From Candidatus Saccharimonadota bacterium (GTDB taxonomy: Bacteria; Patescibacteriota; Gracilibacteria; BD1-5; UBA6164), in the NCBI GenBank assembly GCA_963677765.1, contig OY782392.1:720001-752000 (forward strand): 32,000 nucleotides of DNA, in the 5' to 3' direction. The notes beneath the pieces are model-generated. The model saw only the letters and a list, made by a program, of their open reading frames with translations. It searched no databases and was not told where the DNA came from. Positions 1-32,000 of this stretch are shown here, piece by piece (the stretch's first letter is position 1; every line of letters starts with the position of its first letter). Both the position numbers and the translations under genes were made by a program.

Positions 1-566
1 ACATCTGATCCAAATATGTCGTTGTTTGGCCAGTTTGCAGGAGTTGCTCTACCATTATTAGCAGACATTTGTAGAGAATCAATTAATCTAATGATTTCAT
101 CTATATTTCTACCATTTGATAATGGGTAGTACATTAATGCTGAAATTTTTCATTCAGGATTAATTATAAATACTGCTCTAACTGTATGAGAACTATCAGC
201 ACTTGGTTGTAGCATTCAATAGTCATATGCTATAGATGGAGCTGCTACAATTGGAAATTCTATATCAACATTAAATTTTTCTTTTATATTTAATGCCCAA
301 GCTATATGTGATTGTATACCATCAACTGAGTAACCTATTAATTCAACATTTCTTTTATCAAATTCTTCTTTTTTTACTTGAAATGCTATAAATTCAGAAG
401 TACATACAGGAGTAAAGTCTGCAGGATGTGAGAATAATACAACCCATTTTCCTTTGTAATCAGATGGGAAGTTTATAGCTCAAGTAGTTGAAGGTCAGCT
501 AAAAGCTGGAGCTTGTTCTCAAATTAAAGGAACTCTAGGCATTGGCATAGTTACATTATTTTCCAT
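1..566 (-). CDS. Peroxiredoxin, 1-Cys/Prx6-like (3' end runs off the window)
   Basis: Table-25 translation from ATG at 566: [59 protein letters not shown]...[11 protein letters not shown]. It has the FSHPxDFTPVCT peroxidatic-Cys motif. In-frame TGAs fall at Gly-like positions and there is no TAA/TAG in 188 codons. Confidence 0.85.
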
Positions 567-606
567 AATTGTATGAATTATAAAATTAAAATATATTTAT
601 TAGAAA

Positions 607-621
607 TGAGAATTATTCTTA
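607..621. promoter_or_regulatory. Fur-family-type 7-1-7 inverted repeat, box 1 (TGAGAAT-T-ATTCTTA)
   Basis: Near-perfect 7-1-7 palindrome 41-55 nt upstream of the peroxiredoxin ATG. It shares the architecture of Fur/PerR/Zur boxes (TGATAATnATTATCA class). A second copy lies 63 bp away and a Fur-family gene is adjacent. Confidence 0.5.
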
Positions 622-669
622 TTTCTTGAAAGTATTATATTACTATATTTTGTATAGTCAAATAAAAAA

Positions 670-684
670 TGAGAATTATTCTCA
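670..684. promoter_or_regulatory. Fur-family-type 7-1-7 inverted repeat, box 2 (TGAGAAT-T-ATTCTCA, perfect)
   Basis: Perfect 15-bp palindrome 73 nt upstream of the Fur-like gene ATG. A TATAAT hexamer sits at 698-703, so the box lies where a -35 element would be. Confidence 0.55.
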
Positions 685-756
685 AAAAGATTTGATTTAT
701 ATAATTTTTTAATTAAAATTAACTTAAATTAATATTTAAAAGTTAAGTAAAATTCG

Positions 757-1101
757 ATGAAAACACATTATTATAAAGAAGATATAAAAAAAATATGTAA
801 AGATAAACATTTAACTGTAGAACAAATTTTTGAAGAAATATCAAAAATTTATTCTGATGCATGAAAATCATCTATATATAGAAATGTAGAAGAAATGGTA
901 AAAGAATGAGACCTTAGAAAATTGGTTTGAGTTTGAAAAAAATCTTATTTTGAATCTAATTGTTGAAACCATATACATTTAGTAGATGTTAATACATGAC
1001 AAATAATAGATTTACCTGAAGATATTATTATAAAAAATTTACCTGAAAATTTTAAACTGAAAAATATGGATGTTAAATTGTTTTGAGAATTTAGTTCATA
1101 G
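757..1101 (+). CDS. Fur-family transcriptional regulator, minimal 114-aa form (PerR-like by context)
   Basis: MKTHYYKEDIKKICKDKHLTVEQIFEEISKIYSDAGKSSIYRNVEEMVKEGDLRKLVGVGKKSYFESNCGNHIHLVDVNTGQIIDL... The winged-helix SIYRNVEEMVKEGDL matches the Fur TVYRTL..L.e.GlV pattern, followed by HxH. 115 codons end at TAG. The usual CxxC pairs are missing. Confidence 0.7.
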
Positions 1102-1148
1102 AAAAGATTTTTATTTTGGGAGGAGGAAAATAAAAATCTTTTTATTTT
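1102..1148 (+). terminator. Rho-independent terminator after the Fur-like gene
   Basis: Perfect 16-bp arms AAAAGATTTTTATTTT / AAAATAAAAATCTTTT around the loop GGGAGGAGG, followed by a T-rich run. Confidence 0.75.
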
Positions 1149-1171
1149 AATTTATATAAATAAAAATTATT

Positions 1172-1630
1172 ATGAAGCTTAATTTAGAAAATAAATATTT
1201 GATTTTAGAAAATAATTCAGAAAAAGAACTTAGTTTAGGAGATATATTATCATGAGATAATACAATTTTATTTTTTTATCCAAAAGATAATACTCCATGA
1301 TGTACTATTGAAAATAAAGATTTTTCTTGTTTGAAAACTGACTTTGAATCAAAATGATATAAACTTATTTGAGTTTCTAAAGATAGTATAGATAGTCATA
1401 AAAAATTTGTAGAAAAACAATGATTAGAAATTAGTTTAATATCTGATCCAGATTTAATATTACATAAAGAACTTTGAGCTTATTGAGAAAAAAATAACTA
1501 TTGAAAAATAGTAGAGGGTGTTATTAGATCAACTTTTATAGTATCTTGAAACTGAGAAGTAGAAAAAGAATATATAAATATTAGAGCAAAATGACATGCT
1601 GAAAGGATATTAAAAGAAATTTCAAATTAA
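1172..1630 (+). CDS. bcp: Thiol peroxidase Bcp / peroxiredoxin Q
   Basis: MKLNLENKYL...ILFFYPKDNTPGCTIENKDFS...[28 protein letters not shown]... It carries the FFYPKDxTPGCT signature. 11 of its 13 Gly codons are TGA. 153 codons end at TAA. Confidence 0.9.
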
Positions 1631-1659
1631 AACCATGAGTTAATACTTATGGTTTTTTA
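1631..1659 (+). terminator. Rho-independent terminator after bcp
   Basis: AACCATGAGT-TAAT-ACTTATGGTT hairpin (one G-U pair) followed by TTTTT. Confidence 0.6.
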
Positions 1660-1675
1660 TTTCTAAAAAATTAAT

Positions 1676-1743: not shown

Positions 1744-3897
1744 ATGAATGTAGAACAATTAAAAGAAAAAACAAAGGATGCTTTAAAAAAGTATTGAATA
1801 GATTTAGTTGAAAAGGCTAAGTCTTGAAAAATAGATCCTGTTATAGGTAGAGAAGAAGAAATAAGAAGAGCTATACAAATATTATCACGTAGAACTAAAA
1901 ATAATCCAGTATTAGTATGAGAACCTTGAGTTGGTAAAACTGCTATTGTCGAATGAATAGCTAAAAAAATTAGTGAGAAAGATGTTCCTGATAATTTGTT
2001 AGAAAAAACAATAATAAGCCTTGATATGTGAGCTTTACTTGCTTGAGCGATGTTTAAATGAGAGTTTGAGGAGAGATTTAAGGCTGTAATATCAGAAGTA
2101 GAAAAATCAGAATGAAAGATAATCTTATTTATAGATGAAGTTCATACTATAGTTTGAGCTTGAAATTGAGAATGACAAAATGATGCTTGAAATTTATTAA
2201 AACCTAGTTTAGCTAGGTGAGAACTTCATTTGATTTGAGCAACTACTATAAATGAATATAGAAAATATATAGAAAAAGATGCTGCTTTAGAAAGGAGATT
2301 TGCTCAAGTAATAGTTGATGAACCATCAAGAATAGATACTTTATCTATACTTAGAGGTATAAAAGATAAATATGAAAATCATCACTGATTAAAAATTACA
2401 GATAAGGCTATAGAATCTGCTGTAGATTTATCTATAAAATATATAAGTGATAGAAAACTCCCAGATAAAGCTATAGATTTGATGGATGAAGCTATGAGTT
2501 CTGTTAAGTTAAAATCAATATCTAAACCAGTAGAATTAGATATATTAGAAAAAGAAATTAGAACTTTAAAAATAGAACTAGAAGCAAAAAAAACAGAAAA
2601 AAGTATTTGAAAAGATATTTTAGATTCTTTAGAGAAACAGATACTTGATAAATCAAAAGAATCAGAGTTAATTGAAAAAACATGGAAAAATGAAAAAGAT
2701 ATTTTAAATAATATTAAAAATAGTAGATTAAAAATAGATGAATTCAAAATTAAAGCTGATATTTTTGAAAGAGAATGAAATTTATGAGAAGTAGCAAGAA
2801 TTAGATATAGTGAAATACCCAATTTAGAAAAAATAATACTAGAAAATGAGTCTAAAATGAAAGGTTTAGAAGAGAAATGAGTAACTTATTTGAAAGATAG
2901 AGTTGATTCAAATGATATAGCTGAGATAATTGCAAAATGGACTTGAATTCCTGCTCAAAAATTACTTGAGACAGAAAGAGAGAAGCTTTTGAAATTAGAA
3001 GAAGTATTAAAAAAAGATGTTATATGACAGGATAATGCATTATCTTCAATTTCATCTGCTATAAGAAGGGCAAGAGCTTGATTATCAGAAGAATGAAAAC
3101 CATTAGGTAGCTTTTTATTTTTATGACCTACTTGAGTTGGTAAAACAGAAACAGCCAAAGCTTTAGCTAAAAACATGTTTGATGATGAAAAAAATATGAT
3201 AAGAATAGATATGAGTGAATACATGGAAAAACACTCTGTATCTAGACTTATATGAGCACCTCCTTGATATATATGACATGATGAATGAGGTCAGTTAACG
3301 GAAGCAGTTAGAAGAAAACCATATAGTGTTATACTTTTTGATGAAGTTGAGAAGGCTCATTCTGATGTATTTAATATATTATTACAAGTATTGGATGATT
3401 GAAGATTAACTGATAGTAAATGAAGAGTTGTAAATTTTTCAAATACTATAATTATATTAACTAGTAATATATGAAGTAATAAGATACAAGAATTAACAAA
3501 AGAAAATAAGAATAGTTTAGAAATTTTATCTAATCTAGAAGTTGATTTAAAACAATATTTTAGACCAGAATTTTTAAATAGACTTGATGATATAATTATT
3601 TTTAATCCTTTAAGTGAAGATGAAATAATAAATATAGTAAATAATATATTAAATGATTTAGTTATTTTATTAAATAAAAAATCTATAAAAGCTGATTTTA
3701 GTATAAAATTAAAAAAACATTTAGCATCTGTTTGATTTGATAGAGATTATTGAGCTAGACCATTAAAAAGAATAATAAATAATAAAGTAGTTAATTATTT
3801 ATCAAATAATATATTATCATGAAATATTAATTCATGAGATGAAGTTATATTAGATATAGATGATAATAAAAATATAATACATAAAAAAAGTAGTTAA
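1744..3897 (+). CDS. clpB: ATP-dependent chaperone/disaggregase ClpB, natively lacking the N-terminal domain (717 aa)
   Basis: [71 protein letters not shown]...[19 protein letters not shown]...LLQVLDDGRLTDSKGR...GARPLKRII. Both Walker A/B modules and the coiled-coil M-domain are present. It is collinear with E. coli ClpB from about residue 145 onward. 718 codons end at TAA. Confidence 0.97.
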
Positions 3898-3915
3898 ATT
3901 TTAACTACTTTTTTT
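3883..3915. terminator. Bidirectional palindromic terminator shared by clpB and the convergent YgjV-like gene
   Basis: Perfect 33-nt palindrome AAAAAAAGTAGTTAAA-T-TTTAACTACTTTTTTT. It contains both stop codons (3895-3897 on + and 3901-3903 on -). Confidence 0.8.
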
Positions 3916-4596
3916 ATATTCTTCTATTTCGTTTTTTACTATTTTAATATCTTTTTTTATTTCTTTATTAAATTTAATCTTAAATTTTTGTATAAAATTT
4001 TTTTGTTTTATTCTAATAAAATCATAGATATTTATATATCTACCAACATCTGGTTTTGGTTTTTTTAGAATTCACATTACTTTGTCTACAAAATATACTC
4101 TTTTTCATTCTTCTATAATCATTTTATACATAGCTATTACTAATAAGAATTGTACAAGTATTTCATTTAGAATTCATCACATTGATCATGTGCTTATATG
4201 GAATGTAAACCAAAACATTGATGTAACAAACATAAATAATCTTAATCTTATTCTTTCAAAAAAGAAATATCAATAAGCTGATATTATTGAACCTATTATA
4301 GGAAGTATAGAGTAATTATTTTCAAATGTAATTATTCAAAAAACTATAGTAGCTGATACTATTCATAAAAATATTCTTTTATTTTTTTTGTATTTTAAAG
4401 ATAAAAATATACGAAATATTCATATTATAGTAGCTGCTAATGCAGAATAGACTCACATTGTGTAAAAATGTAAAGCCCAAAAAATCATTGAAATAATAAT
4501 TATTTTCAATGTTTTTTTATCATCTTTTTGAAGTAAAGCCATAAATGCTATTGCCATGGCTATAAATCAAAAAGTTTGTCATAGAGGATTTTGCAT
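3901..4596 (-). CDS. YgjV-family inner membrane protein with a Lys-rich C-terminal extension
   Basis: MQNPLGQTFGFIAMAIAFMALLQKDDKKTLK...HFYTMGVYSALAATIIGIFRIFLSLK...ILPIIGSIISAYGYFFFERIRLRLFMFVTSMFWFTFHISTGSMGGILNE... It is collinear with E. coli YgjV (LLPVIGTIVSTWALF...WVIHNFWAGSIGG). 232 codons. Confidence 0.7.
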
Positions 4597-4941: not shown

Positions 4942-4972
4942 AAAAAATAAGAGAATAATTCTCTTATTTTTT
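4942..4972. terminator. Perfect 15-1-15 palindrome: terminator of the 4964-5521 gene, with a core identical to the Fur-box-like motif
   Basis: AAAAAATAAGAGAAT-A-ATTCTCTTATTTTTT. The stop codon of the minus-strand gene (4964-4966) lies inside it. The core AGAGAAT-A-ATTCTCT resembles the boxes at 607 and 670. Confidence 0.65.
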
Positions 4973-5521
4973 ATTTGTTAAATTCATTATAGCTAGTCAT
5001 AAAGCAATTAATACAAGAAACATTATTAAATATATTATTTTTTCTTTATCTTTATTTTTTTCTATTTCGTTATCATTATTTTCATTAATAACTACTTCTT
5101 TTTCTTCTATAGTATCTTGAAAATATTCTAAATCTTCTTGAGCATTACTTGTTAATGATGTTCTAGAGCATAGTGAAACTGACTCTTCTCATACTTCTCA
5201 GTTAGTATAAACTATATATTCTTTTCATTCTTCAAAATTATATCAACATGTAGCTGAACTTTGAGCAGTACTTATTTTTTTTACTTCACTGTATTCTCAT
5301 TTTATGTTTTTTATTCAAGAAAAACTTACAATTAATTTATCATATTGGTTTAATCTATTTTTTTCTTCTATTCATGAAACAGTTCATATAAACACACTTG
5401 TAGACATTTCTTTTGATTCATTTGGGCTTGCAGGTTGTATACATGAACAAGCAAAAGTTTTACTATTGCTTAAAACAAATAAACTAAACATTATAAAGAT
5501 AAGAGTTAATATTTTTTTCAT
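4964..5521 (-). CDS. Secreted, C-terminally membrane-anchored protein with a mature N-terminal Cys-x-Cys (TIMP/NTR-module-like)
   Basis: MKKILTLIFIMFSLFVLSNSKTFA|CSCIQPASPNESKEMSTSVFIGTVSG...ATCGYNFEEGKEYIVYTNGE...SLCSRTSLTSNAQEDL...IIYLIMFLVLIALGLAIMNLTNKK. It has a signal peptide, then CSC...P, CGY.F..G.EY.VY and C.RT, the pattern of bacterial TIMP-like proteins. 186 codons. Confidence 0.55.
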
Positions 5522-5641
5522 AATTTTTTATTTAATAATAATATATTATTAATAACGATTAAATACTTTTTTGGTGACAAAAATTTTAAAAAAATAAAAT
5601 AACGCATATATTATATTAGAATTATGACTTAAATATACTTA

Positions 5642-6403
5642 ATGAAAAAATTATTAATAGTTTGTGCTCATTCAAAAGAATTAAATTCTGTTAAATCAAA
5701 AATAAAAGAAATTAAACAAAAAAACTTAAAAATAAGTTTTTTTTCAACATGAATATGAAACTATAATGTTTTATTAAATCTTTCTAGATTTTTAGAAAAT
5801 AATCATTTTGATTTTGTATTAAATATATGAGTATGTTGATATGTAAATGATTATAAAGAAGTTTTCCAAGTTTCAAGAATATGTAATTTAGCTAACAATA
5901 AAGAAATAATTGTTCCTACTATAATAAACTGATATGATTTAGAATCAATTCTTACAAGTGATAATGTAGTTTCTGATAAAAATATATTATTAAATGAATC
6001 TTATGTAGATATGGAATCTTATGCAATTGAATTAGTTTGTGATAGTTTTAAGATACCTAGGTTATTGTTAAAAGTTCCTGTAGACAAGGTTTGAATAGAA
6101 ACAAAAAATTTTGATTACTTAAAAGCTGATAATTTTTTAAAAAATAATATAGATTATGAAGAACTACTATTAAAACTAGATAATTATTTATCTAGCTATG
6201 AAGATGAGGTTGATTTTGAATACTATTTTAAAAATTATAACTTTACTTTTAGTGAAAAAGAAATATTTAAAAAGTATTATTATAGATATATTTCATTAGT
6301 TTGAAATAATTTTGATGACTATTTTTTTAAAAATTTATTAGAAGATAAAAAGGAATTTTTAAAAAGATTGGAAAAATTTTTAGATAAATACTTGATAAAA
6401 TAA
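5642..6403 (+). CDS. Nucleoside phosphorylase-superfamily protein (Pfs/MTAN- or MqnB-like nucleosidase) with a C-terminal extension
   Basis: MKKLLIVCAHSKEL...FFSTGIGNYNVLLNLSRFL...FDFVLNIGVCGY...YVDMESYAIELVCDSFKIPRLLLKVPVD. These match E. coli Pfs blocks SGIGKVAAA / DVIINTGSAGG / AVEMEATAIAHVC..FNVPFVVVRAISD. 254 codons. Confidence 0.65.
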
Positions 6404-6410: not shown

Positions 6411-7376
6411 ATGATTTTATATATAGAAAAACAAGCAATAGATTATCCTCAAACTAAAAAAATCTTAGAAAAATTTAAAAACTCAAATATTATATATATT
6501 GATAATTATAAAAATATATTTGATAAAGATTTTTATAATTTAAATTCTTCTAAAAGTTTAATTGTAGCTAAACTTAATTCTGCTGCAGTTAGTGAAGCTC
6601 CTGCTTGATATTGACATACTGAAAGTGCTTTTTTCTTTAAAACAAGTCTTAATTGTATTTATGATTGTAGTTATTGTTATTTAAAATGAGCTTTCAAAAA
6701 TGATAATATGGTAGTTTTTGTTAATTATGATGATATCAAAAAACAAATATTAGAAAAAATATCTAGCTTAGATAAGAATAAAACTCATTGGTTTTATAGC
6801 TCAGATTATTCTGATATATTATGAATGGATTGATTTACAAATTTTATGCAAGAATTTGTAGAATTTTTTGAACAATTTGATAATGTGAAAATGGAAATCA
6901 GAACTAAGGGATCAAATATTAAGTCTATATTAGATTTATGATTTGTTCCAAAAAATACAGAAATATCTTTTTCTTTAAATCCTCAAATTCTTATAGATAA
7001 ATATGAAAAGTGAACATCTTCTTTGCAATCGAGATTGGATGCTATAAAAAAACTACAAGACTTATGATATTTGGTATGAGTTAGATATTTACCATTATTA
7101 CCTGTAAAGGATTATGAAATAATTTATAAAGATTTTATTGATAAAATTAAAATCTCTATAGATATAAATAAAACATATTCTTCTTTTGCTTCAGGTCTTT
7201 TGTATACAAAAAAAGATTATAATAAAATACTTTCTAAATATAGAGATTTAGATATACTCCATATGCTAGAATTAGATAATGATTGATTTTATAGAGAATC
7301 TAAAAAAGTAAGAGATAATTTTTATTCTATGTTTAAAGCTTTGGATAAAAAATGTATTTTATGTTTAGAATACTAA
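6411..7376 (+). CDS. Radical SAM protein, spore photoproduct lyase (SplB) family
   Basis: MILYIEKQAIDYPQTKKILEKFKNSNIIYIDNYKNIF...TSLNCIYDCSYCYLKG... The CX3CX2C cluster has Cys codons at 6654, 6666 and 6675. The track ORF 6411-6608 is its N-terminal fragment, truncated at the first TGA. 322 codons. Confidence 0.75.
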
Positions 7377-7384
7377 ATAAATAT

Positions 7385-8023
7385 ATGAAAAAAAACATAT
7401 TAATAACATGAACATCAAAATGAATATGAAAATATTTAACTTCTAATTTAAAAAATGATTTTAATATCTATTGTATTTCTAGAAATTCAACAGATATTGA
7501 GGGGGTTTTTGATATTAACATTGATTTAACAAACTTTTCAGAAATTGATAAATTTGTTAAAAACTGTGAAGAAAAAAATATTTTTTTTGATTCATTAATA
7601 TTAAATGCTTGAGTTTGATATTTTTGAAAATTTGAAGATGCTAGTGATCAAGAATACTTAAATATAATAAATTTAAATCTTAGTTCTAATATTTTATTGG
7701 TAAAAAAGATTTTACATTTATTGAATGAAAAATCTAAAATAATTTTTTTATGAAGTATTATATCTAAAAAGTTCATGAAGTATTGAGCAGTTTATCAAGC
7801 TAGTAAATTTTGAATAAGATGATTTGCATGAGCATTAAAAAATGAATTAAAATGAAAAAGCGTTCATATATTAAATCCAAAAATTGTTGATACATGATTT
7901 CATGATAAATCAAATATAGAGCTGAATTTTTCAAAAAATCAATTAACTCCCAAAAAAAATATTTTAGATACTATTATTAATCTTTTAGAATGAAATGATA
8001 AGAGGTTTGAAATAGACTTATAA
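7385..8023 (+). CDS. Short-chain dehydrogenase/reductase (SDR) family oxidoreductase
   Basis: MKKNILITGTSKGIGKYLTS...LILNAGVGYFG...GAVYQASKFGIRGFAGAL. It has the TGxxxGxG, NAG and YxxxK motifs. 213 codons. Confidence 0.85.
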
Positions 8024-9567: not shown

Positions 9568-9608
9568 AAAATACAAATATATAATGATTTTATATATTTG
9601 TATTTTTT
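9568..9608 (+). terminator. Rho-independent terminator after the hydrolase-VanY gene
   Basis: 16-bp arms AAAATACAAATATATA / TATATATTTGTATTTT, a 7-nt loop and trailing Ts. Confidence 0.7.
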
Positions 9609-9625
9609 ATTGTAATAAATTAATA

Positions 9626-11700: not shown

Positions 11701-12153
11701 ATGGCAAAAAAATATGAAAAGAGTTCAGGTTGAATTGTATACCGTAAAAAATGATCTAAAGTTGAAATCTTACTTCTTAAGTGGTTAAATTCTAAAAACC
11801 AAGAAATATATGTTATCCCAAAATGACATATTGAGCAATGAGAAGTTGCTAAAGATACAGCTATTAGAGAAATATCTGAGGAAGCTTGATTAGACCAAAA
11901 AGATTTGGAAATAATTAAGTTTATTACTAAGCTAAACTATACATTTACAGCAGGGTATTTAGAAAATAATCCTGTAATCGATAAGGATGTTTATCTTTTT
12001 TTAGTTAAATATAATTGAACTAAAGCTCCCATAGTTCAAACAGAAGAAAGGTTTGTATGATACTCTTGGTTTACTTTGGAAGAGTTGAAAAAAATAAAGG
12101 TTATGTTTGATATAGGTTCTATAATATCAAGAAACAAGACTTTTTTTATATAG
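11701..12153 (+). CDS. NUDIX hydrolase
   Basis: MAKKYEKSSGGIVYRKKGSKVEILLLK...YVIPKGHIEQGEVAKDTAIREISEEAGL. It matches the Nudix box GX5EX7REUXEEXGU. 151 codons end at TAG. Confidence 0.85.
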
Positions 12154-12166
12154 ATAATTTTATGAT

Positions 12167-19404: not shown

Positions 19405-19416
19405 TATATTAAAAAT

Positions 19417-20953: not shown

Positions 20954-20963
20954 TTATAAAAAC

Positions 20964-23547: not shown

Positions 23548-25830
23548 ATGATAAATTTATCAGATAAAAATGCTACAATGTTGACTCCTTTGAAAAAGTC
23601 ATATGAAATATCAGGAGAAAAAATTTCTTTTGAATCATGAAAATTAGGTTTATTAATAAATGGTTCAGTAACTATTAGTGATGAAAATGATAATGTATTA
23701 TTTGTTTCTACTTGATTTAAACAAGAATGATTAAATGAGAAAGCTGATTTTTTTCCGCTTATAGTTGAATGGCAAGAAAAATTTTATGCTACTGGTAAAA
23801 TAGGTGGTAATAGATTTCAAAAAAGAGAATGAAGACCTAGTGATGAGGCTACTTTAACAGCAAGACTTATTGATAGACCAATAAGACCAATGTTTCCAAA
23901 ATGAATTATTAACGATACTCAAATTATCGCTACAGTTTTATCTTCTAGTTGAGAAAAAGAATTAGGTTTATGGTGAATTTCATGAGCTTCTATTTGACTT
24001 ATGTTAGCTTGAACTCCTTTTGAATGACCTGTTGCTGGTTGTAAAATATCTTTAATGGAAGATGATAGTTATGTTTTTAATCCAACAACAAAACAAGAAC
24101 ATGATGCAAAATTAACTCTTCTTACTGCATGAACTTTAGATGCTATAACTATGGTAGAAGCATGAGCTAAAGAAGTTAGTGATGAAGAAATGGTTAGTGC
24201 TTTAGAAAAATCTCATGAAATAATAAAATCTATATGTAATGCACAATTAGATTTTGTAGCAGAGTATAAAAAAGTATTTTGAATAGAAGAAGTAGAAGCT
24301 ACTTATAATAATCCAGATGAATCTTTATATGATCTAGTAAAAGAATTTTTAACAGAAGAAAAAATGGAAGTTCTTTACAATAAAGGTAAAAAAGAATTTC
24401 AATTTGAGTTAAATAATCTTGATGTAGAAGTTAGAGACTATTTGTCTGAAAAATGATATATAGTTTGAGAATGATCAGATAATATTTGAGAATCTTGTTT
24501 AGTTTCAGAAGATAAAAAAGTCGATGAATCTTCTGTTTGAGCTCTTGTATATAAAAGAGTAAAAGAAGTTATGAGATCTAACATATTAACTAAAGAAAAA
24601 AGATTAGATTGAAGAAAATTAGATGAAGTTAGACAAGTTATAGGTGAAGTTTGATTGTTACCAAGAACTCATGGTTCTGCGTTATTTCAAAGATGAATGA
24701 CTCAAGCTTTATCTATTACTACTTTAGGTTGACCTGATGATGTTCAAACATTGGATTGAATGATGCCTGAATCTGAAAAAAGATATATACATCATTATAA
24801 TTTTCCACCATATTCAGTAGGAGAGGTTAGAATGATGAGATGAGTTGGTAGAAGAGAAATAGGTCATTGAGCTTTAGCTGAAAGAGCTTTAGTTCCTGTA
24901 CTTCCTTCTGAAGAAGAATTTCCATATACAATGAGAGTTGTTTCTGAAATAACTACATGTAATGGTTCAAGTTCTATGGCTTCTGTTTGTGGTTCAACAA
25001 TGAGTCTTATGCATGCTTGAGTACCAATTAAAGCTCCTGTTGCATGAGTTGCTATGTGAATGATTTATGATGAAAAAACTTGAGATTACAAAATATTATC
25101 AGATATACAAGCTCAAGAAGATTTTTTAGGTGATATGGATTTTAAAGTTGCAAGAACAAAAAAATGAATTACAGCTATGCAATTAGATGTAAAAATAAAA
25201 TGATTAAAAATGGATGTTTTTAGAAATGCATTTAAACAATCTATAGGTGCAATTGATTATATATTAACTCAAATGTTATCTGTACAAGATAAACCAAGTG
25301 AAAAATTATCTAAATATGCTCCACTTATTCTTAGTTATCAATTACCAGTTTCAAAAATAAGTAGTGTAATCTGAAAATGATGAGAAAATGTTCAAAGAAT
25401 GGAAAAAGAATACTGAGTAAGAATCTCAATAGCTGAAGATTGAGTTACTACTATTACTGCTGAAAATCAAGACTGATGAGAAAAAGTTATTGATGAAATA
25501 AAAGAAATTCTATGGGTTCCAGAAGTATGATATAAATGAATAGGTAAAGTAGTCAAAATAATTGATTGAACTTGAGCTATTATTGAGTTTAGATGAAAAT
25601 CATGAATGATTCATATTTCAAAATTATCTTATAAAAGAATTGAAAAAGTAGAAGATGTTTTAAACATGTGAGATGAAGTTAAATTTGAAATTATTCAAGT
25701 AGATCTTGATAAATGAAGGATTTGATTAAAAAGGGAATTATCTGAACAAGAACAAAAAGAATTAGATGAAATAAAAGCAAAAAAAGCTAAAGAACAAGAA
25801 GAAAAAAATGATAAAAAAGAAGAAAAATAA
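23548..25830 (+). CDS. pnp: Polyribonucleotide nucleotidyltransferase (PNPase)
   Basis: ...[13 protein letters not shown]...[52 protein letters not shown]...[13 protein letters not shown]...[18 protein letters not shown]...[13 protein letters not shown]...RREIGHGALAERAL...[34 protein letters not shown]...[11 protein letters not shown]... It is followed by KH (VIGKGGENV) and S1 ([16 protein letters not shown]) domains. 761 codons. Confidence 0.97.
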
Positions 25831-25858
25831 AAAAAGAACTCTTAGAGTTCTTTTTTTA
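25828..25858. terminator. Bidirectional palindromic terminator shared by pnp and the convergent response regulator gene
   Basis: TAAAAAAAGAACTC-TTA-GAGTTCTTTTTTTA. The outermost triplets are the two stop codons (25828-25830 on + and 25856-25858 on -). Confidence 0.8.
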
Positions 25859-26530
25859 TTCTTTTAATATAAATCATTTAGAATTGAGAGTTATTAAATT
25901 AAATTCATCTCATAATTTTTTTCTTAAATTAAATATCGTTACATTTATTGTATTATCACTTATTCATATACCATCATAAGATCACCATATAGATATTGTT
26001 AGATCAGTTCTTTTTATTATTTTATTTTTATTTATTATAAAATATTCAATTAATAAAAGTTCTCTTTTTGTAAATTGAATATTTATGTGATTCTTTGATA
26101 TTATATTTCAATATCTTAAGTCATATTCAATATTTTTATACTTTATTATTGAAGATATATGTTCTCATTTTCTTCTTACAAGACTCCTTATTCTTGCCAT
26201 TAATTCCTCAGTATTATATGGTTTATCCAAATAGTCATCAGCTCATAAATCTAAACCATATATTTTTTTATCATATTCTGAATATCATGATGTAATTATT
26301 ATATGTGATTTTATATTTTTTGATTCTCTTAGCCATTGAATTATTTCAAATCATTCATTTTCTGAATTTCATAAATTTAAATCTATTATATATAAATCAG
26401 ATTCAATTTTATGATTTGATATAACTTCGTTTTTTGAATTATATTCAGATACAAAATATCAATTTTTCTTTAGTTTTTTAGCTAAAATCATAGATAATTT
26501 CATATCATCTTCAATAATAGTTATCTTCAT
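25856..26530 (-). CDS. OmpR-family response regulator (receiver + winged-helix)
   Basis: MKITIIEDDMKL...DLYIIDLNLG...GADDYLDKPYNTEELMARIRSLVRR...FTKRELLLIEYFIINKNKIIKRTDL...DNTINVTIFNLRKKLG...KGFILKE. The acidic pocket DD, the phospho-Asp and KP are conserved. 225 codons. Confidence 0.9.
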
Positions 26531-26632
26531 TATATTTTTTTATTATTTTAAATTTCAATAATTTTATCCATAAAATCTCTTTTACAAAATAATATGTATT
26601 TATAGGTTCATTTATCATAATTTTTATAAATT

Positions 26633-26652
26633 AAATGTAACTAAAATGTAAC
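26633..26652. promoter_or_regulatory. Direct repeat AAATGTAAC-N2-AAATGTAAC (11-bp phasing): candidate OmpR-type response-regulator binding site
   Basis: Two identical 9-mers at 26633-26641 and 26644-26652, in the 168-bp divergent region between the RR gene (start 26530) and the 26699 operon. Confidence 0.4.
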
Positions 26653-26657
26653 AAATT

Positions 26658-26686
26658 AAAAATATAAGTTAATTACTTATATTTTT
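26658..26686. promoter_or_regulatory. 12-5-12 perfect inverted repeat immediately upstream of the 26699 ATG
   Basis: AAAAATATAAGT-TAATT-ACTTATATTTTT ends 13 nt before the start codon. It could be an operator or a leader hairpin. Confidence 0.35.
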
Positions 26687-26698
26687 AATTTATATTTT

Positions 26699-27526
26699 AT
26701 GGTTTTAAAACTAGATGTTAGTTCATTTGATACTAAAAAAATTACTAATTGAGATTTAAAAAAGATATCTTTGATTGAGAAAGATATTTGGGCAACTTGA
26801 ATATGAGAATATGTTAAGTGTAACTATTGCAATGAGATACATTCAAAAGAAGATATTTTCTGACATTTGCCTATTGATATTAAGAAGAAAAGTGTAGATA
26901 TACTAGAAGAATTATTTTTGTCAGATACAATTAATTGTAAAAAGTGTAAATCTTGAAATACATCTTTTATATATGATCTAGATTTTAATATCCAAAATAT
27001 TATAGATAGATATAAAAATAGTGTTGAATCATATTTAAGTATTTTACATGATGATGAATGAAATTTTTATTGATTTTCTGATTGATATATTGATAAATTT
27101 AAAATTATATATAAAAATGAGCTTTTGATTTATTTTTGAGAAGACCTTTATAATGATTTAATTAATAATTGATTTGTGGATAATTTTATTAATTATTTTT
27201 GTTGTAGTTCTGTTTGAATACTTGAAGAGAAAAAAAGTTTTAAAAATTTATATTTATTATTAAAAAAAATGTATTTTTCAATAGATGATAAATACAATGA
27301 TTTGGTATGAGTAGCAGAGATTGATAATTTTAGTTTTATAAGAAGATTATCAACTAATTTATGAGCAAGAGAGTATTTACTAGATAGTTATAATAAGAAA
27401 AACAAAAATAGTAATAATAATAGCAATTTATATTTTCAAAATTGACTGATATGAAAATATAAAGAACTATTTTCTTATGATTTGAAAGAATTTGTTATTA
27501 AAAATTTCAAATCCACTTGTAAATAA
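26699..27526 (+). CDS. Hypothetical protein with paired CxxC motifs (zinc-ribbon-like), first gene of the histidine-kinase operon
   Basis: MVLKLDVSSFDTKKITNGDLKK...YVKCNYCNEIHSKEDIF...DTINCKKCKSGNTSF... 276 TAA/TAG-free codons. I recognise no family. Confidence 0.55.
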
Positions 27527-27573: not shown

Positions 27574-29670
27574 ATGTCATTTTATATATTCTTCTACTTC
27601 TTAATAATTTTTTTATTAATTTATATTTGAATAAAAATTTATTTAACCTTCAAAAGAACAAGTTGAATATATTTTTTAATATCTATGATTTTAACATCTT
27701 TTCGGTTTATTTTATATATTTTTTCTTTTACAAATATCTTTGCTCAAGAAATATATTTATATCTAAATAGATTAATGTATTTTACATCTTTATGATGATT
27801 TTATAGTTTTATATTATTTTTGTATTTTTTTAAAAATAAATTTATTATAAGCAAAATATATTATAACTTAATTTTTGTTTTAATATCATTTGTATTAATA
27901 GTTTTTACACCTTTGTTTGTATTATCAATATATGAATTAAATGGTTTATATTATGAAAGTTATTGAAAATATTATATTTTATTATTTATATTTTATTATA
28001 TTTTATATTTATATATTCCATTTTTATCTTATAAAACTATAAAAAATACTAAATTAATTAATAAAATTAGATTAAAATATATAGTTTTATGATATCTTTT
28101 ATTTGTATATTTAATTCAAGTATTTCAACTATTTCTTCCAATATGGGGATTTTATTTTTTGGAAAAAGAATCTATTATTTTTATAATACCTCTTATATTT
28201 TTTTCATATTATTCAATTACTAGATATAGTTTTTCAAATTTATTTTTAAAATCAAAAGAAATATTATCATTATTATTTTCAATCATATTTACTATACTTT
28301 TACTTTTATTTATAAAGAAAATATCAATTTTATTTTGATTAGAATTCCTTAATTTCTGGTGAATTAGTCATAGTTTTACTTATATTGATATTATTTTTTC
28401 TATAATAATTTTTTATGCATTAAATATAATTTTAAATAAAATATTACCTTGAAATAAAAATTATGAAAATTTTATTGAAGATATATTAAAAATACAAAAT
28501 GAGCTTCGTTTTATTTTGAACTTTAAATCTATTAAAAAGTATCTTAATAATAAAATTTATACTAATTATTGAATAAAATATTCAAATATAATATTAATTA
28601 ATAATGAAAATAAAAATTTTGAATTATTTAATTTTTTTAATAATAATTTAAATTCTTATTTTATAAATGATATTGTTTTTTTAGAAGAAAATAAAAATAA
28701 ATTTGATATATGAAAAATTAAATCACAAATCAATAGAGAATCATATATAATTTTTCCTTTGAGAAATAATGTTTGAGAATTAATATGATTTTTTGAATTA
28801 TGAAAAAAAATGTATCTTGAGAATTATTATTCTGAAGAAATAGATATAATAAAAGGATTTGTAAATTTTTTATCTAGTCATTTAAAATATGTTGAAATAT
28901 ATTCAAGTATTAATTATTTGAATCTAAATTTAGATAAGGAAATTGATAAAAAAACCATAGAATTTAATAATTTAATAAATAAGCAAAAAGAATTTATATC
29001 GGTTGCTTCTCATGAGATAAAGACTCCTATCATGTCATCAAGCTTACAAATTGAAAGTATAATCGATGATGTTAATGAAAATAGTTATGATATTGATTAT
29101 CTAAAAGAAGAACTTTATATATTAAAAGAACAAATATTTAAAATATCAGATTTATCTAAGGTTTTATTTGATATAGAAAAATATGATATTTGAAAAGTAA
29201 ATTTATATATAGAAAGAGTTAAGTTAGAAACAATTTTTTTAAATGAAATTTATTATTTAAAAAAAATAAATAATAAATTAGAAATAGATTTCATTTTTGA
29301 TGATAAAATATGATATATAGATTTGGATAAAATTCAATTTACACAAGTTATATCAAATATAATTAATAATGCTAATAAATTTTCTGATAAAAATAAACCT
29401 AAAATATTAATTAAGGTTTCTAGTATAGATGATTATATAAAAATTAATATTGATGATAATTGAGTATGATTTAGTTATGATGAAAATGAATATATTTTTG
29501 ATAAATATAATACTTGAGAATGAGAATCTATATGATTAGGTTTAGGTTTATATTTATGTAAGAAAATAACAGAATACCATTGATGAAAAATAAAAGCTAA
29601 TAATTCTAAAATACTTTCCTGAGCATCTTTTGAGATTATTATACCAAAGTTACAAAAAAGAGATATATAA
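27574..29670 (+). CDS. Sensor histidine kinase with a polytopic N-terminal membrane domain
   Basis: About 300 aa of TM segments, then H-box EFISVASHEIKTPI, N-box VISNIINNANKFS, G1 IDDNGVGF and G2 GLGLGLYLCKKITEYHGGKI. Track ORF 28810-29193 is an in-frame internal fragment. 699 codons. Confidence 0.9.
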
Positions 29671-29681
29671 TATCTCTTTTT
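29654..29681 (+). terminator. Hairpin + T-run overlapping the histidine kinase stop codon
   Basis: AAAAGAGATA-TATAA-TATCTCTTTT, then T. The stop codon at 29668-29670 lies in the loop. Confidence 0.6.
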
Positions 29682-29745
29682 ATTGAATATATATTTAATA
29701 TTATTATTATATTTTTAGTTTTACTATTATATTAATAATATTTTA

Positions 29746-30432
29746 ATGGATTGCTTAATTATAGATGATGATAAATTTTTAACTATGAAGTTAAAAAAGA
29801 TGTTTATTAATATTAAAAATATAAATAGTGTAATAACCATTAATGATTATTTGTGATTTATTAATATATATTTTAGTATAAATATATATGATGTTATTTT
29901 ATTGGATATTAATCTTAACTCTAATAAAAATTGAATTGATATATTGAGATTAATTAGAAGAAAAAATTTAACTATTCCTATAATAATATTTAGTTGAAAC
30001 TCAAATCTAGATATGATAGATTTAGCTTTTAAAAATTGAGCTAGTGACTATATAATCAAACCATTTAGATTTGAAGAATTAAAGCTTAGAGTTTTAAATT
30101 GGTATAAAAATAGAAAATGTAGAGTTGATTATTATTCTAATTGAAATATTTATTACAATTGATTACTATATTATATTGATAATAATGATTTTTTATATTT
30201 TTGAGAAAAGATTTTATTAACAAAAACTACTAAAAGGCTGTTATATATTTTCTTATATAATAAAGAGAAGTTAATTTCAAATGATTTTTTATTAGAAAAA
30301 TTATATTGATATTGAATTTATGACAAAAATCTTAGGATTATAATTTTAAGACTGAAGAAAAGTTTATTATCATTTTGATTAGGAAACTCTATCGAAAATA
30401 TAAGATGAGAATGATATATTTTTAAAATATAA
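29746..30432 (+). CDS. OmpR-family response regulator (second copy)
   Basis: MDCLIIDDDKFL...YDVILLDINL...GASDYIIKPFRFEELKLRV...LLTKTTKRLLYIFLYNKEKLISNDFL...IENIRGEGYIFKI. 229 codons. Confidence 0.85.
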
Positions 30433-30477
30433 TAAAATATGATATAATATTTATATATTAAATAAAATTAATAAAAA

Positions 30478-31029
30478 ATGTTAGAAAAAGAAATAAAAAT
30501 ATTAGATATAGATAAAAGGTCTGTGGAAGAAAAATTATTAAAACTAGGTGCAATTAAGACTTTTGACTGATTTATTCATGATATTTACTATGATTTTCCA
30601 GATTGAGATAATATGAAAATGGAAGAAAATAAGAGGTTATTTAGAGTGAGAAAAAAATGAGAAGAACATCTATATACAATAAAAAGAAAAAGAAATAAAA
30701 AAAGTGAAGGTTGAGAAAAATGAGTAAAAGTAGCAGATGAATGAGAAAATACTATAACTGATGTTGAAAGTTTCACAAAGGTTTTAGAAAAATATTGAAT
30801 GACTAAAACAAGAGAAAAAATGAAGCATAGAACATCTTATAAATTATGAAATATAGAATTTGATATTGATGATTATGAATGAATTCCTACTCTTATAGAA
30901 ATTGAGGCTCCAAGTTCTTCAGATATAAAAGAATATATATCATTATTAAATCTAGATAATCATATACAAAAGAAGTTTTGATCGAGAAAATTATATGAAT
31001 ATTATTGATTAGAATATAAATATTTATAA
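30478..31029 (+). CDS. CYTH-domain protein (CyaB-type class IV adenylyl cyclase / triphosphate tunnel metalloenzyme)
   Basis: MLEKEIKILDID... has the N-terminal ExExK signature. ...RVRKKGEEHLYTIKRK...KHRTSYKLGNIEFDIDDYEGIPTLIEIEA is typical of the CyaB/ThTPase fold. 184 codons. Confidence 0.75.
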
Positions 31030-31059
31030 AAAACAACTAATTAAAATAGTTGTTTTTTT
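31028..31059 (+). terminator. Rho-independent terminator after the CYTH gene
   Basis: AAAAAACAACTA-ATTAAAA-TAGTTGTTTTTT(T). Confidence 0.75.
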
Positions 31060-31070
31060 ATTTATAAATA

Positions 31071-31099
31071 AAAAAGTATCTTATTAAGATACTTTTTTT
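31071..31099 (-). terminator. Hairpin terminator for the VTC-domain gene (its stop codon lies in the hairpin)
   Basis: AAAAAGTATCTT-ATT-AAGATACTTTTT. The minus-strand stop codon is at 31084-31086. Confidence 0.7.
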
Positions 31100-31947
31100 G
31101 TTATTTCATTTGTTATATGTTTTGTTATATCATTTAGAGAACCTTTTCTTTTTTTATTAGATATTGTTTCCATTCTAATTTTTTTGATTTGTTCCATTGT
31201 TTCTTTAAATGTATCAAATTTTTCTGCTAATCATGAATAAACAACTCATAGAGAATATTTGCTACAACTTTTTGCCTTATCTATATTGTGTGTTTTCATT
31301 ATTTCACAAGCTTGACAGTCTTCTTTTAATGATTTACTTTCTATTATAACAAGATTTTTTAAATCAACTATCTTTGCTCATTTTTTTCTTAAGTCAGTTG
31401 CTTTTATATCAAAATCAATAGTTAATCTTTCTTCTCAGTTTTTACTAACCATTGTTATTCTTTTATAGTTTGTCTTTATAGAAGGAGATATTTCAGGTGC
31501 TTTTTCACCAGAATATACACTTTGCCATACTCAATCAAAGAACCTTTTTTTACCTCTAGTCATGAAACCATGTTCTTCAGAAGGAAATTGATATCTATAT
31601 TTACTTGTTATTCCATCGTTTTTTTGTTTATATTCAAAAAATGCTAAATTTGAATCTACATAATATCTTGTTCTAACTTTTGTTCTAGATTTTAATTTAT
31701 TTTGATGTTGATTATAAAATAGATAATCTTTTGTATCCATATATACATTATCATATTCAAAAACTTTTTTTCAGGCAATTTCTAATACTTGAAATTGATC
31801 TTTTAAATCACTAAGTATATCTGAAAATTGTTTTGAATTAAGTAGAAATTTTCTATCAATTCTTTTTAAAAAACTTGCTGTAGAATTTAATTCAGTTAAA
31901 GTTATTGGTTTAAAACTTTTTAGTTTATCGTTAAATTTAGGAGCCAT
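31084..31947 (-). CDS. VTC-domain protein (polyphosphate-polymerase-type triphosphate tunnel domain)
   Basis: MAPKFNDKLKSFKPITLTELNSTASFLKRIDRKFLL...FEYDNVYMDTKDYLFYNQHQNKLKSRTKVRTRYYVDSNLAFFEYKQKNDGITSKYR...ERLTIDFDI...IIESK. These are the R.D.KF, Y.DT...Y, R.K.R.R.Y and E.K blocks of bacterial VTC proteins. Track ORF 31531-31740 is an in-frame fragment. 288 codons. Confidence 0.75.
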
Positions 31948-31972
31948 ATTACTTCAGGGGGGTTAGTTTTTA

Positions 31973-31986
31973 TTTTTGTTTTTGTA
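31973..31986 (-). other. 14-nt motif TACAAAAACAAAAA at -39..-26 of the VTC gene ATG (copy 2 of 2)
   Basis: It is identical in sequence and spacing to 11566-11579 upstream of the sortase gene. A C6 run (31957-31962) lies between the motif and the ATG. Confidence 0.4.
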
Positions 31987-32000
31987 TTACTTATTTATTT

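What the first reader, a model, noticed from the sequence alone, without database searches (positions are those of the whole stretch)
1..32000. TGA is a sense codon for glycine (table 25): the window looks ORF-free under the standard code but is about 93% coding
The supplied track finds only 18 standard-code ORFs (4,677 nt, about 15% of the window). Thirteen of them are antisense or off-frame, which is not credible for a bacterial segment. Reading TGA as sense yields 31 long frames free of TAA/TAG, totalling about 29.7 kb. The encoded residue is Gly, because TGA sits at invariant glycines. Examples: clpB Walker A boxes G-E-P-G-V-G-K-T (TGA at 1918-1920 and 1927-1929) and L-G-P-T-G-V-G-K-T (3124-3126, 3133-3135). 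Others are the SDR motif T-G-T-S-K-G-I-G (7409-7411, 7421-7423, 7427-7429), the EngB G1 loop G-R-S-N-M-G-K-S (17744-17746, 17759-17761) and Bcp P-G-C-T (1298-1300). Trp is still encoded by TGG at conserved tryptophans (peroxiredoxin KWVVLFSHP, 444-446 on the minus strand; VanY EPWHWRY, 9459-9461 and 9465-9467). TGA is the majority Gly codon (11 of 13 in bcp). Every gene ends at TAA or TAG. This is the SR1/Gracilibacteria code, so standard-code pipelines will shatter or miss nearly every gene here.
Basis: partly seen in the sequence, partly recalled or inferred. Interest (0 to 1): 0.85.

Follow-up and report, generated by a model that had tools for sequence, protein, structure and literature searches.

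The report
Gracilibacteria DNA: TGA encodes glycine
This 32-kb stretch comes from a very AT-rich Gracilibacteria bacterium that reads the stop codon TGA as glycine, a genetic code known since 2013, and it probably also reads the rare codon CGG as tryptophan.

Summary
Under the standard code the window (21.6% GC) has 18 ORFs totalling 4,677 nt. Four are in frame with real genes, 13 are antisense or off-frame, and one is intergenic. With TGA read as sense, 30 non-overlapping genes cover 92.4% of the window.

TGA means glycine, not tryptophan:
- ClpB: 80.5% Gly opposite TGA in 76 standard-code orthologues.
- PNPase: 57.9% Gly and 0.2% Trp in 141 diverse homologues, matching the window's own GGN columns.
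- TGA swaps with GGN 23 times in a relative's pnp gene and never with TGG.
- Pfam scores are higher with Gly than with Trp in all eight proteins that have hits.

TGA supplies 82% of glycine codons. A tRNA with anticodon UCA and the glycine identity set lies upstream of clpB in five relatives. It is not in the window. RF2 loss could not be tested.

This is the established SR1/Gracilibacteria code, which has proteomic support, so the main finding is already known.

One addition: both CGG codons in the window sit at conserved tryptophan positions. This fits the published prediction that some Gracilibacteria read CGG as Trp, so table 25 alone would probably mistranslate them.

Public protein collections hold this window's proteins only as table-4 (Trp) translations.

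The parts
3..566 (-). Peroxiredoxin (AhpC-TSA). It runs off the window start. 5 TGA, 6 GGN, 3 TGG.
   Evidence: Pfam AhpC-TSA scores 97.9 bits with Gly and 83.7 with Trp. Against PDB 5ovq, 4 of 5 TGA lie opposite Gly and 3 of 3 TGG opposite Trp. The gene is not at this position in relatives.
757..1101 (+). Fur-family regulator, 7 TGA.
   Evidence: Pfam FUR scores 50.2 bits (Gly) against 34.5 (Trp).
1172..1630 (+). Bcp-type peroxiredoxin, 11 TGA and 2 GGN. The P-G-C-T glycine is the TGA at 1298-1300.
   Evidence: Against PDB 5iox, 7 of 10 TGA lie opposite Gly. Pfam scores 95.5 against 70.3 bits.
1744..3897 (+). ClpB disaggregase without the N-terminal domain, 38 TGA. Both Walker A loops carry TGA-coded glycines (1918-20, 1927-29, 3124-26, 3133-35).
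   Evidence: It aligns to E. coli ClpB residues 154-854 (E = 5e-218). Gly lies opposite 31 of 38 TGA. Across 76 standard-code orthologues Gly fills 80.5% of cells.
3901..4596 (-). Imp-YgjV inner-membrane protein, 12 TGA.
   Evidence: Pfam scores 113.2 bits (Gly) against 77.1 (Trp).
4964..6403 (.). Two genes with no Pfam match: 4964-5521 (-) and 5642-6403 (+), with 9 and 7 TGA.
   Evidence: Both are TAA/TAG-free frames. Orthologues are present in relatives L083 and L003.
6411..7376 (+). Spore-photoproduct-lyase-like radical SAM protein, 10 TGA.
   Evidence: Pfam SPL scores 99.8 against 84.0 bits.
7352..8023 (+). Short-chain dehydrogenase, 14 TGA. In T-G-T-S-K-G-I-G all three glycines are TGA. 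The true start is probably the ATG near 7385.
   Evidence: Pfam adh_short scores 97.3 against 61.2 bits.
8034..9557 (+). Alpha/beta-hydrolase plus VanY D-Ala-D-Ala carboxypeptidase, 34 TGA. EPWHWRY uses TGG.
   Evidence: VanY scores 81.3 against 54.7 bits. The Abhydrolase_1 hit (59.9 bits) is lost with Trp. The TGG codons are verified.
9584..10303 (+). RlmE/FtsJ rRNA methyltransferase, 11 TGA.
   Evidence: Pfam FtsJ scores 164.9 bits. Against PDB 6jp6, 7 of 9 TGA lie opposite Gly.
10608..11540 (-). Sortase, 7 TGA. It holds one of the window's two CGG codons, at 10668-10670, in TLMTC[CGG]PIGT.
   Evidence: Pfam Sortase scores 83.4 bits. Of 97 homologues with the motif, 94 have W at that site. 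Both homologues with R there (L093, L094) and relative L003 carry CGG at the site.
11701..13205 (.). NUDIX hydrolase 11701-12153 (+) and two genes with no Pfam match, 12167-12634 (+) and 12663-13205 (-). A small membrane ORF lies at 10311-10589 (-).
13286..14305 (-). Prepilin peptidase (A24), 28 TGA.
   Evidence: Pfam A24_N_bact scores 92 bits.
14435..17575 (.). Protein with a PG_binding_1 domain, 14435-16381 (+), 31 TGA. Membrane protein, 16415-17575 (-), 15 TGA.
17654..18235 (+). EngB/YsxC GTPase, 10 TGA. Both G1-loop glycines (17744-46, 17759-61) are TGA.
   Evidence: Against PDB 3pqc, 5 of 8 TGA lie opposite Gly, including both G1-loop positions.
18259..23342 (+). AI-2E transporter 18259-19404, TPR protein 19712-20953, and a 793-aa secreted protein with no Pfam match, 20964-23342 (68 TGA).
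23548..25830 (+). Polynucleotide phosphorylase, 48 TGA and 20 GGN.
   Evidence: PDB 5yjj matches at E = 6e-147.
25856..27526 (.). OmpR-type response regulator 25856-26530 (-) and a gene with no Pfam match, 26699-27526 (+).
27574..29670 (+). Membrane histidine kinase, 24 TGA. It holds the second CGG codon, at 27703-27705 (residue 44).
   Evidence: Pfam HATPase_c. Relatives L001, L089 and L091 have TGG (W) at the aligned site, in a W-F-x-L-Y motif.
29746..31947 (.). Response regulator 29746-30432 (+), CYTH protein 30478-31029 (+), and VTC-domain protein 31084-31947 (-).
   Evidence: The same gene order occurs in relatives L001, L089 and L091.

Best explanation
The window is ordinary, densely packed chromosomal DNA of an uncultivated Gracilibacteria (BD1-5/GN02) bacterium with 21.6% GC. 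It uses the SR1/Gracilibacteria genetic code.

Shown here: UGA is a sense codon for glycine. UAA and UAG are the only stops. UGG remains tryptophan.

Shown in close relatives and inferred for this genome: UGA is read by a dedicated tRNA with anticodon UCA. That tRNA carries the bacterial glycine identity set (G1:C72, C2:G71, G3:C70, U73), so GlyRS should charge it.

Inferred from the literature: release factor 2 has been lost, so nothing competes for UGA.

Inferred: strong AT mutation pressure then converts GGN glycine codons to TGA, the only glycine codon with a single G or C. As a result TGA now supplies 82% of glycine codons.

Probably also true: CGG, which has almost vanished from this genome, is read as tryptophan rather than arginine.
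For: Coding density rises from 13.8% to 92-94% when TGA is read as sense. Shuffled sequence reaches at most 6.4%.

Gly lies opposite TGA in standard-code orthologues:
- ClpB: 31 of 38 columns, 80.5% of cells.
- PNPase: 57.9% Gly and 0.2% Trp, equal to the GGN columns. Mean BLOSUM62 is +2.93 for Gly and -2.27 for Trp.
- EngB, RlmE, Prx and Bcp together: 23 of 32.

TGG columns are Trp. TGA interchanges with GGN 23 times and with TGG 0 times in pnp of relative L001. Pfam scores are higher with Gly in 8 of 8 proteins.

Composition points the same way. Gly is 6.3% of residues if TGA is Gly and only 1.1% if not. Trp would be 5.6% if TGA were Trp.

A tRNA(UCA) of 76 nt plus encoded CCA occurs in L003, L005, L083, L084 and L085. 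The five copies differ at one base, although the surrounding DNA is only 78-96% identical to the window. It scores 47.8 bits against the Rfam tRNA model. It has a 7-bp acceptor stem GCGGGGG/CCCCCGC and discriminator U73.

The nearest named relatives are Candidatus Gracilibacteria.

Literature:
- Proteomics gave 97 peptides unique to the Gly translation against 3 unique to the Trp translation (PMC4032931).
- prfB is absent from all BD1-5 genomes examined (PMC6851277).
- The glycine identity rules used here are those of PMC8629427.
Against: No tRNA gene lies in the window. Its own 1.05-Mb contig could not be retrieved, so the tRNA-Gly(UCA) and the absence of prfB are not shown for this genome itself.

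Gene order with the tRNA-bearing relatives breaks upstream of window position 668.

About 20-40% of TGA columns are not Gly in distant homologues. The window's own GGN columns show the same, so this is normal divergence. There is no protein-level evidence for this organism.
Confidence: 0.97

Rival explanations
1. The code is table 4 (Mycoplasma or endosymbiont type), with UGA read as tryptophan. This is what automatic gene callers assumed for this very sequence.
For: The genome is very AT-rich, like other UGA=Trp lineages. The public collection stores this window's proteins only with W at TGA. Many relatives are stored the same way: P0001 has 46 W and 23 G, where the NCBI table-25 entry P0004 has 3 W and 65 G.
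Against: Trp fills 0.2% of cells opposite TGA in PNPase homologues, and E. coli ClpB has Trp opposite none of the 38 TGA codons. TGA never interchanges with TGG. Pfam scores drop in every protein when Trp is used (against 47). Trp content would be an implausible 5.6%. The UCA tRNA has glycine identity elements, including U73.
Confidence: 0.01
2. The code is strict NCBI table 25. UGA is Gly and every other codon is standard, so the two CGG codons encode arginine that replaced tryptophan through single TGG-to-CGG mutations.
For: TGG to CGG is a single transition, so a genuine Trp-to-Arg substitution would also produce CGG. There are only two CGG codons in the window. No tRNA(CCG) was seen in any locus fetched.
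Against: Both CGG codons fall at conserved Trp positions and none falls at an Arg position. At the sortase site 94 of 97 homologues have W. Both homologues with R there, and relative L003, use CGG, although about 95% of Arg codons here are AGA or AGG. At the histidine kinase site three relatives have TGG. CGG pairs only with CGG or TGG, whereas CGT pairs with AGA and AGG. Codetta predicted CGG=Trp in some Gracilibacteria (PMC8629427).
Confidence: 0.2
3. UGA encodes selenocysteine, or is only partly read through, rather than being fully reassigned.
For: ARAGORN labels the UCA tRNA 'tRNA-SeC'. RF2 status is unknown for this genome.
Against: There are 505 in-frame TGA codons, 5.1% of all codons, and they sit at glycine positions rather than Cys or Sec positions. 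The tRNA is an ordinary cloverleaf with a 7-bp acceptor stem and a short variable loop, not the SeC architecture. Termination at even a small fraction of about 17 TGA per gene would abolish full-length protein.
Confidence: 0.005
4. The window is decayed, non-coding or misassembled DNA, and the long frames are artefacts.
For: Under the standard code it looks free of ORFs.
Against: Frames free of TAA and TAG cover 92% of the window, against at most 6.4% in 100 shuffles. Twenty-one of the 30 products hit Pfam families over nearly their full domains. An independent metagenome contig is 99.9% identical over 9.9 kb. Relatives conserve the gene order.
Confidence: 0.002

Closest known systems
NCBI translation table 25: Candidate Division SR1 and Gracilibacteria code (Campbell et al. 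2013; Rinke et al. 2013; proteomic validation by Hanke et al. 2014, PMC4032931)
   Same: UGA is Gly, UAA and UAG are stops, and UGG is Trp. The genome is AT-rich and small, and the nearest relatives are named Gracilibacteria. Relatives carry a tRNA(UCA) with glycine identity elements.
   Different: TGA use is extreme here: 82% of glycine codons at 21.6% GC. CGG appears to be Trp, which table 25 does not include.
Codetta-predicted Absconditabacteria code: UGA=Gly plus CGA and CGG=Trp, with CGG=Trp also predicted in 'some Gracilibacteria' (Shulgina and Eddy 2021, PMC8629427)
   Same: Both CGG codons lie at conserved Trp sites. CGN codons are nearly extinct, and Arg is encoded almost entirely by AGA.
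   Different: CGA is absent from the 30 genes, so its meaning cannot be read. No tRNA(CCG) was recovered. The lineage is Gracilibacteria rather than Absconditabacteria.
Table 4: UGA=Trp in Mycoplasmatales, Entomoplasmatales and insect endosymbionts
   Same: UGA is a sense codon in an AT-rich reduced genome, with presumed RF2 loss.
   Different: The amino acid here is Gly, not Trp. The tRNA derives from a glycine tRNA rather than from tRNA-Trp.

Membership tests
Table 25 (SR1/Gracilibacteria code) | In-frame UGA inside conserved protein-coding genes, with UAA and UAG as the only stops | tested here: met
   There are 505 in-frame TGA codons in 30 genes. Twenty-nine genes end at TAA or TAG. Coverage is 92-94% against 13.8% under table 11.
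Table 25 (SR1/Gracilibacteria code) | UGA columns align to glycine in homologues that use the standard code | tested here: met
   ClpB 80.5% Gly. PNPase 57.9% Gly, equal to its GGN columns. TGA interchanges with GGN at DNA level.
Table 25 (SR1/Gracilibacteria code) | UGG still encodes Trp | tested here: met
   ClpB: 2 of 2 TGG columns are 100% W. Prx: 3 of 3. In gene-by-gene comparisons with six relative loci, 36 of 41 aligned codon pairs involving TGG are TGG with TGG.
Table 25 (SR1/Gracilibacteria code) | A tRNA with anticodon UCA and glycine identity (G1:C72, C2:G71, G3:C70, U73) | tested here: inconclusive
   It is absent from the window. It is present, nearly invariant and with all four identity elements in five relatives, including loci 94-96% identical to the window. 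The window's own contig could not be fetched.
Table 25 (SR1/Gracilibacteria code) | Loss of release factor 2 (prfB) with prfA retained | not testable with these tools
   Only 32 kb of a 1.05-Mb contig is available. The literature reports prfB absent from all BD1-5 genomes examined (PMC6851277).
Table 25 (SR1/Gracilibacteria code) | The organism belongs to Gracilibacteria or Absconditabacteria | tested here: met
   The best PNPase and ClpB matches are named Candidatus Gracilibacteria, at 65-80% identity. Matches to the listed non-Gracilibacteria loci are at most 56% identical. Gene order is shared with Gracilibacteria MAGs. No 16S or ribosomal-protein phylogeny was possible.
Table 25 (SR1/Gracilibacteria code) | All other codons have the standard meaning | tested here: inconclusive
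   Both CGG codons (2 of 2) lie at conserved Trp sites. This argues against CGG=Arg, but it rests on two sites.
Table 4 (UGA=Trp) | UGA columns align to tryptophan | tested here: not met
   Trp fills 0.2% of cells opposite TGA in PNPase. E. coli ClpB has Trp opposite 0 of 38 TGA codons. Pfam scores fall when Trp is used (against 47).
UGA=Gly plus CGG=Trp code (Codetta prediction) | CGG codons at conserved Trp positions, and CGG interchanging with TGG rather than AGA | tested here: met
   Sortase site: 94 of 97 homologues have W, and both homologues with R, plus relative L003, use CGG. Histidine kinase site: TGG in 3 of 3 relatives. Codon pairs are CGG-CGG 6, CGG-TGG 3 and CGG-AGR 0. The window itself has only two sites.
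UGA=Gly plus CGG=Trp code (Codetta prediction) | A tRNA(CCG) with Trp identity elements | not testable with these tools
   No tRNA(CCG) occurs in the window or in any fetched locus.

The most novel reading that the evidence does not exclude
This Gracilibacteria lineage uses a code with at least two changes: UGA=Gly and CGG=Trp, with CGA and CGC unused in this window. No NCBI translation table describes that code. Even correct use of table 25 would then mistranslate it, and the reassigned UGA has become the dominant glycine codon (82%). The CGG change has so far been predicted only computationally, and only for 'some Gracilibacteria'.
Probability: 0.75. Interest if true: 0.45.

Novelty: already known. 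Interest (0 to 1): 0.25.

Why it matters
The practical point holds. Standard-code pipelines find almost no genes in this sequence. The common fallback, Prodigal choosing table 4, gives full-length proteins with tryptophan at about 5% of positions where glycine belongs. That is how this window's proteins, and many of its relatives', are stored in the large public protein collection. Those entries lower homology scores and would mislead structure prediction.

Biologically, the window illustrates the late stage of a stop-codon capture. Under extreme AT pressure the captured codon has replaced four-fifths of the original glycine codons. The two CGG codons add independent, codon-level support for a second reassignment (CGG to Trp) in Gracilibacteria, which until now rested on a computational screen.

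Tried and rejected
- No tRNA and no Rfam family was found in the window.
I used the NCBI Gracilibacteria PNPase P0004 instead.
- I could not retrieve the window's own 1,048,296-bp contig. P0123 led only to a 9.9-kb ENA contig that is 99.9% identical to the window.
- The GTDB genome scan did not contain the source genome. Its best hits were relatives at 69-81% identity.
- The homologue search with the N-terminus of the histidine kinase returned nothing. I replaced it with codon alignments to relatives.
- No tRNA(CCG) was found in any fetched locus.
- Considered and rejected: table 4, selenocysteine or partial readthrough, and pseudogenes or misassembly (see the rival explanations).
- Also considered: that W in the database homologues at the sortase site could come from TGA mistranslated under table 4. 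I rejected this because W-poor, table-25-type translations also show W there. In the loci examined at DNA level the site is CGG, not TGA.

Full report
**1. Observation**

The window is 21.6% GC. ARAGORN finds no tRNA or tmRNA gene, and no Rfam family reaches its gathering score.

Four are in frame with real genes, 13 are antisense or off-frame, and one lies in a gap.

Stop-to-stop frames of at least 300 nt cover 13.8% of the window under table 11. They cover 94% when only TAA and TAG are stops. Releasing TAG gives 22% and releasing TAA gives 70%, in much shorter frames. One hundred base shuffles give a mean of 2.0% and a maximum of 6.4% for frames free of TAA and TAG, against 92% for the real sequence counted the same way. 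The longest shuffled frame is 570 nt against 2,403 nt observed.

A greedy non-overlapping set has 30 genes totalling 29,559 nt, or 92.4%. Twenty-nine end at TAA (24) or TAG (5), and one runs off the window.

**2. Which amino acid TGA encodes**

I translated TGA as X, so that the queries were neutral, and compared them with proteins from standard-code organisms.

| Protein | Comparison set | Gly opposite TGA |
|---|---|---|
| ClpB | E. coli ClpB | 31 of 38 |
| ClpB | 76 orthologues read under table 11, the listed ones almost all Bacteroidota | 80.5% of cells; majority in 31 of 38 columns |
| PNPase | 141 diverse cluster representatives, 36-48% identical to the Gracilibacteria PNPase used as the search query | 57.9% of cells (Trp 0.2%; Gly background 8.5%) |
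| EngB | PDB 3pqc | 5 of 8 |
| RlmE | PDB 6jp6 | 7 of 9 |
| Prx | PDB 5ovq | 4 of 5 |
| Bcp | PDB 5iox | 7 of 10 |

- In ClpB the seven GGN columns give 87% Gly, and the two TGG columns are 100% Trp.
- In PNPase the window's own GGN columns give 58.9% Gly, so TGA columns behave like ordinary glycine columns. Mean BLOSUM62 over the TGA columns is +2.93 for Gly, with Ser next at +0.18 and Trp at -2.27.
- The Prx alignment also shows Trp opposite all three TGG codons.
- Pfam scores for the same ten proteins are higher with Gly than with Trp in all eight that have hits. Examples are adh_short 97.3 against 61.2 bits, AAA_2 244.7 against 208.5, and VanY 81.3 against 54.7. The Abhydrolase_1 hit is lost entirely with Trp.
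- Composition agrees. With TGA as Gly, glycine is 6.3% of residues; without it, 1.1%. With TGA as Trp, tryptophan would be 5.6%.

A check that assumes no translation table uses pnp of relative L001 (GCA_028689115.1), which is 77% identical at nucleotide level. There the window's TGA pairs with TGA 28 times, and TGA pairs with GGN 23 times counting both directions. TGA never pairs with TGG, and TGG pairs with TGG 3 of 3 times.

**3. Organism and source**

The best PNPase hits that carry names are all 'Candidatus Gracilibacteria bacterium', at 65-73% identity. The GTDB genome scan with ClpB gave:
- a Gracilibacteria MAG (JASMTS01) at 80%;
- an unnamed MAG at 81%;
- Gracilibacteria HOT-871 (CP017714) at 69%;
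- nearly all the remaining loci listed come from Bacteroidota, at 52-56%.

Gene order is shared with these MAGs. Logan and JGI contigs L083-L086 are 94-96% identical to window positions 668-9676. An ENA contig is 99.9% identical to 21559-31445.

The window's exact proteins are in the public collection on a 1,048,296-bp contig (NCBI, ENA), but only as translations with W at every TGA. The Gly versions are absent. Many relatives are stored the same way. I could not retrieve that contig.

**4. Mechanism**

No tRNA lies in the window. In five relatives (L003, L005, L083, L084, L085) ARAGORN finds a tRNA with anticodon UCA about 8-9 kb upstream of fur and clpB.

- The five copies are identical except at one base, although the flanking DNA is only 78-96% identical to the window.
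- It matches the Rfam tRNA model end to end at 47.8 bits. It is an ordinary cloverleaf with a 7-bp acceptor stem (GCGGGGG/CCCCCGC), anticodon loop CUUCAAC, a short variable loop, discriminator U73 and an encoded CCA.
- G1:C72, C2:G71, G3:C70 and U73 are the glycine identity criteria that Shulgina and Eddy used for tRNA(UCA) in this clade.
- ARAGORN's label 'tRNA-SeC' merely reflects the anticodon.

Gene order with these relatives breaks upstream of window position 668, so the tRNA's location in this genome is unknown.

RF2 loss could not be tested. Sieber et al. report prfB absent and prfA present in all BD1-5 genomes they examined. Hanke et al. validated UGA=Gly by proteomics, with 97 peptides unique to the Gly translation against 3 unique to the Trp translation.

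The codon usage fits AT pressure driving GGN to TGA after capture. Counts are TGA 505, GGT 84, GGA 23, GGG 2 and GGC 1. That step is inference.

**5.

CGA and CGC do not occur in the 30 genes. CGG occurs twice.

- **Sortase gene, 10668-10670 (minus strand).** The motif is TLMTC[CGG]PIGT. Of 97 homologues with this motif, 94 have W, 2 have R and 1 has Y. The W group includes W-poor translations in which W cannot have come from TGA. Both R cases (L093, L094) are CGG at DNA level, and relative L003 also has CGG at the site.
- **Histidine kinase, 27703-27705 (residue 44).** The context is TSF[CGG]FILY. Relatives L001, L089 and L091 all have TGG in a clean W-F-x-L-Y context.

Across all locus pairs, CGG aligns only with CGG (6 times) or TGG (3 times), never with AGA or AGG. 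CGT does align with AGA and AGG. Arg is otherwise encoded by AGA (212) and AGG (25).

This matches the Codetta prediction of CGA and CGG=Trp in Absconditabacteria and CGG=Trp in 'some Gracilibacteria'.

Caveats:
- TGG to CGG is a single transition, so a true Trp-to-Arg replacement would look the same at the codon level.
- The window offers only two sites.
- No tRNA(CCG) was recovered.

I put CGG=Trp at about 0.75-0.8.

**6. Comparison with what is known, and verdict**

The window meets the testable defining features of the SR1/Gracilibacteria code (NCBI table 25). It fails the defining feature of table 4. The tRNA criterion is met only in relatives, and the RF2 criterion could not be tested.

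The code has been known since 2013 and has proteomic support, and the source assembly is already public. The main finding is therefore correct but already known.

What is worth keeping:
- the extreme share of TGA among glycine codons (82%);
- the codon-level support for CGG=Trp in this lineage;
- the fact that public protein collections carry these proteins as table-4 mistranslations.

Noticed in passing
window 10668-10670 (-) and 27703-27705 (+): The only two in-frame CGG codons both lie at conserved tryptophan positions: sortase TC[W]P and histidine kinase W-F-x-L-Y. CGA and CGC are absent from the genes. This suggests CGG=Trp, as predicted for some Gracilibacteria.
   Followed up: yes
whole window; proteins P0121-P0123, P0276, P0284 and others: The public protein collection holds this window's proteins only with Trp at every TGA (table-4 gene calls). 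The Gly versions are absent. Many Gracilibacteria PNPase entries are W-rich in the same way, for example P0001 with 46 W and 23 G.
   Followed up: partly
L003:1331-1409, L005:423-501, L083:899-977, L084:899-977, L085:1880-1958: A nearly invariant tRNA(UCA) with the glycine identity set lies 8-9 kb upstream of clpB in relatives. ARAGORN labels it tRNA-SeC, which is an annotation pitfall.
   Followed up: yes
window 1744-3897: ClpB lacks the N-terminal domain. It aligns to E. coli ClpB residues 154-854. It is 717 aa here and in close relatives, and only a 113-nt gap separates it from bcp upstream.
   Followed up: partly
window 1-667 and about 4803-4814, compared with L083: Gene order with the 94-96% identical relatives breaks upstream of position 668, where they have an unrelated 205-aa gene instead of the peroxiredoxin. 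They also carry a 524-aa SulP transporter gene that is missing from the window between ygjV and the next gene.
   Followed up: partly
window 3-566 (-), 10608-11540 (-), 31084-31947 (-): These three genes keep roughly equal numbers of GGN and TGA glycine codons (6:5, 8:7 and 5:6), against 18:82 overall. Across all genes GGT (84) far outnumbers GGA (23), although the two codons have the same G+C content. Both patterns are unexplained.
   Followed up: no
window 20964-23342 (+): This is a 793-aa predicted secreted protein with 68 TGA codons. It is rich in Ser, Thr, Asn and Cys and has no Pfam match.
   Followed up: no
window 19417-19602 (+): This 61-aa ORF has no TGA and lies in the 307-nt gap between the AI-2E transporter and the TPR gene. 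It is the only standard-code ORF that is neither in a gene nor antisense to one. It may be a small real gene.
   Followed up: no
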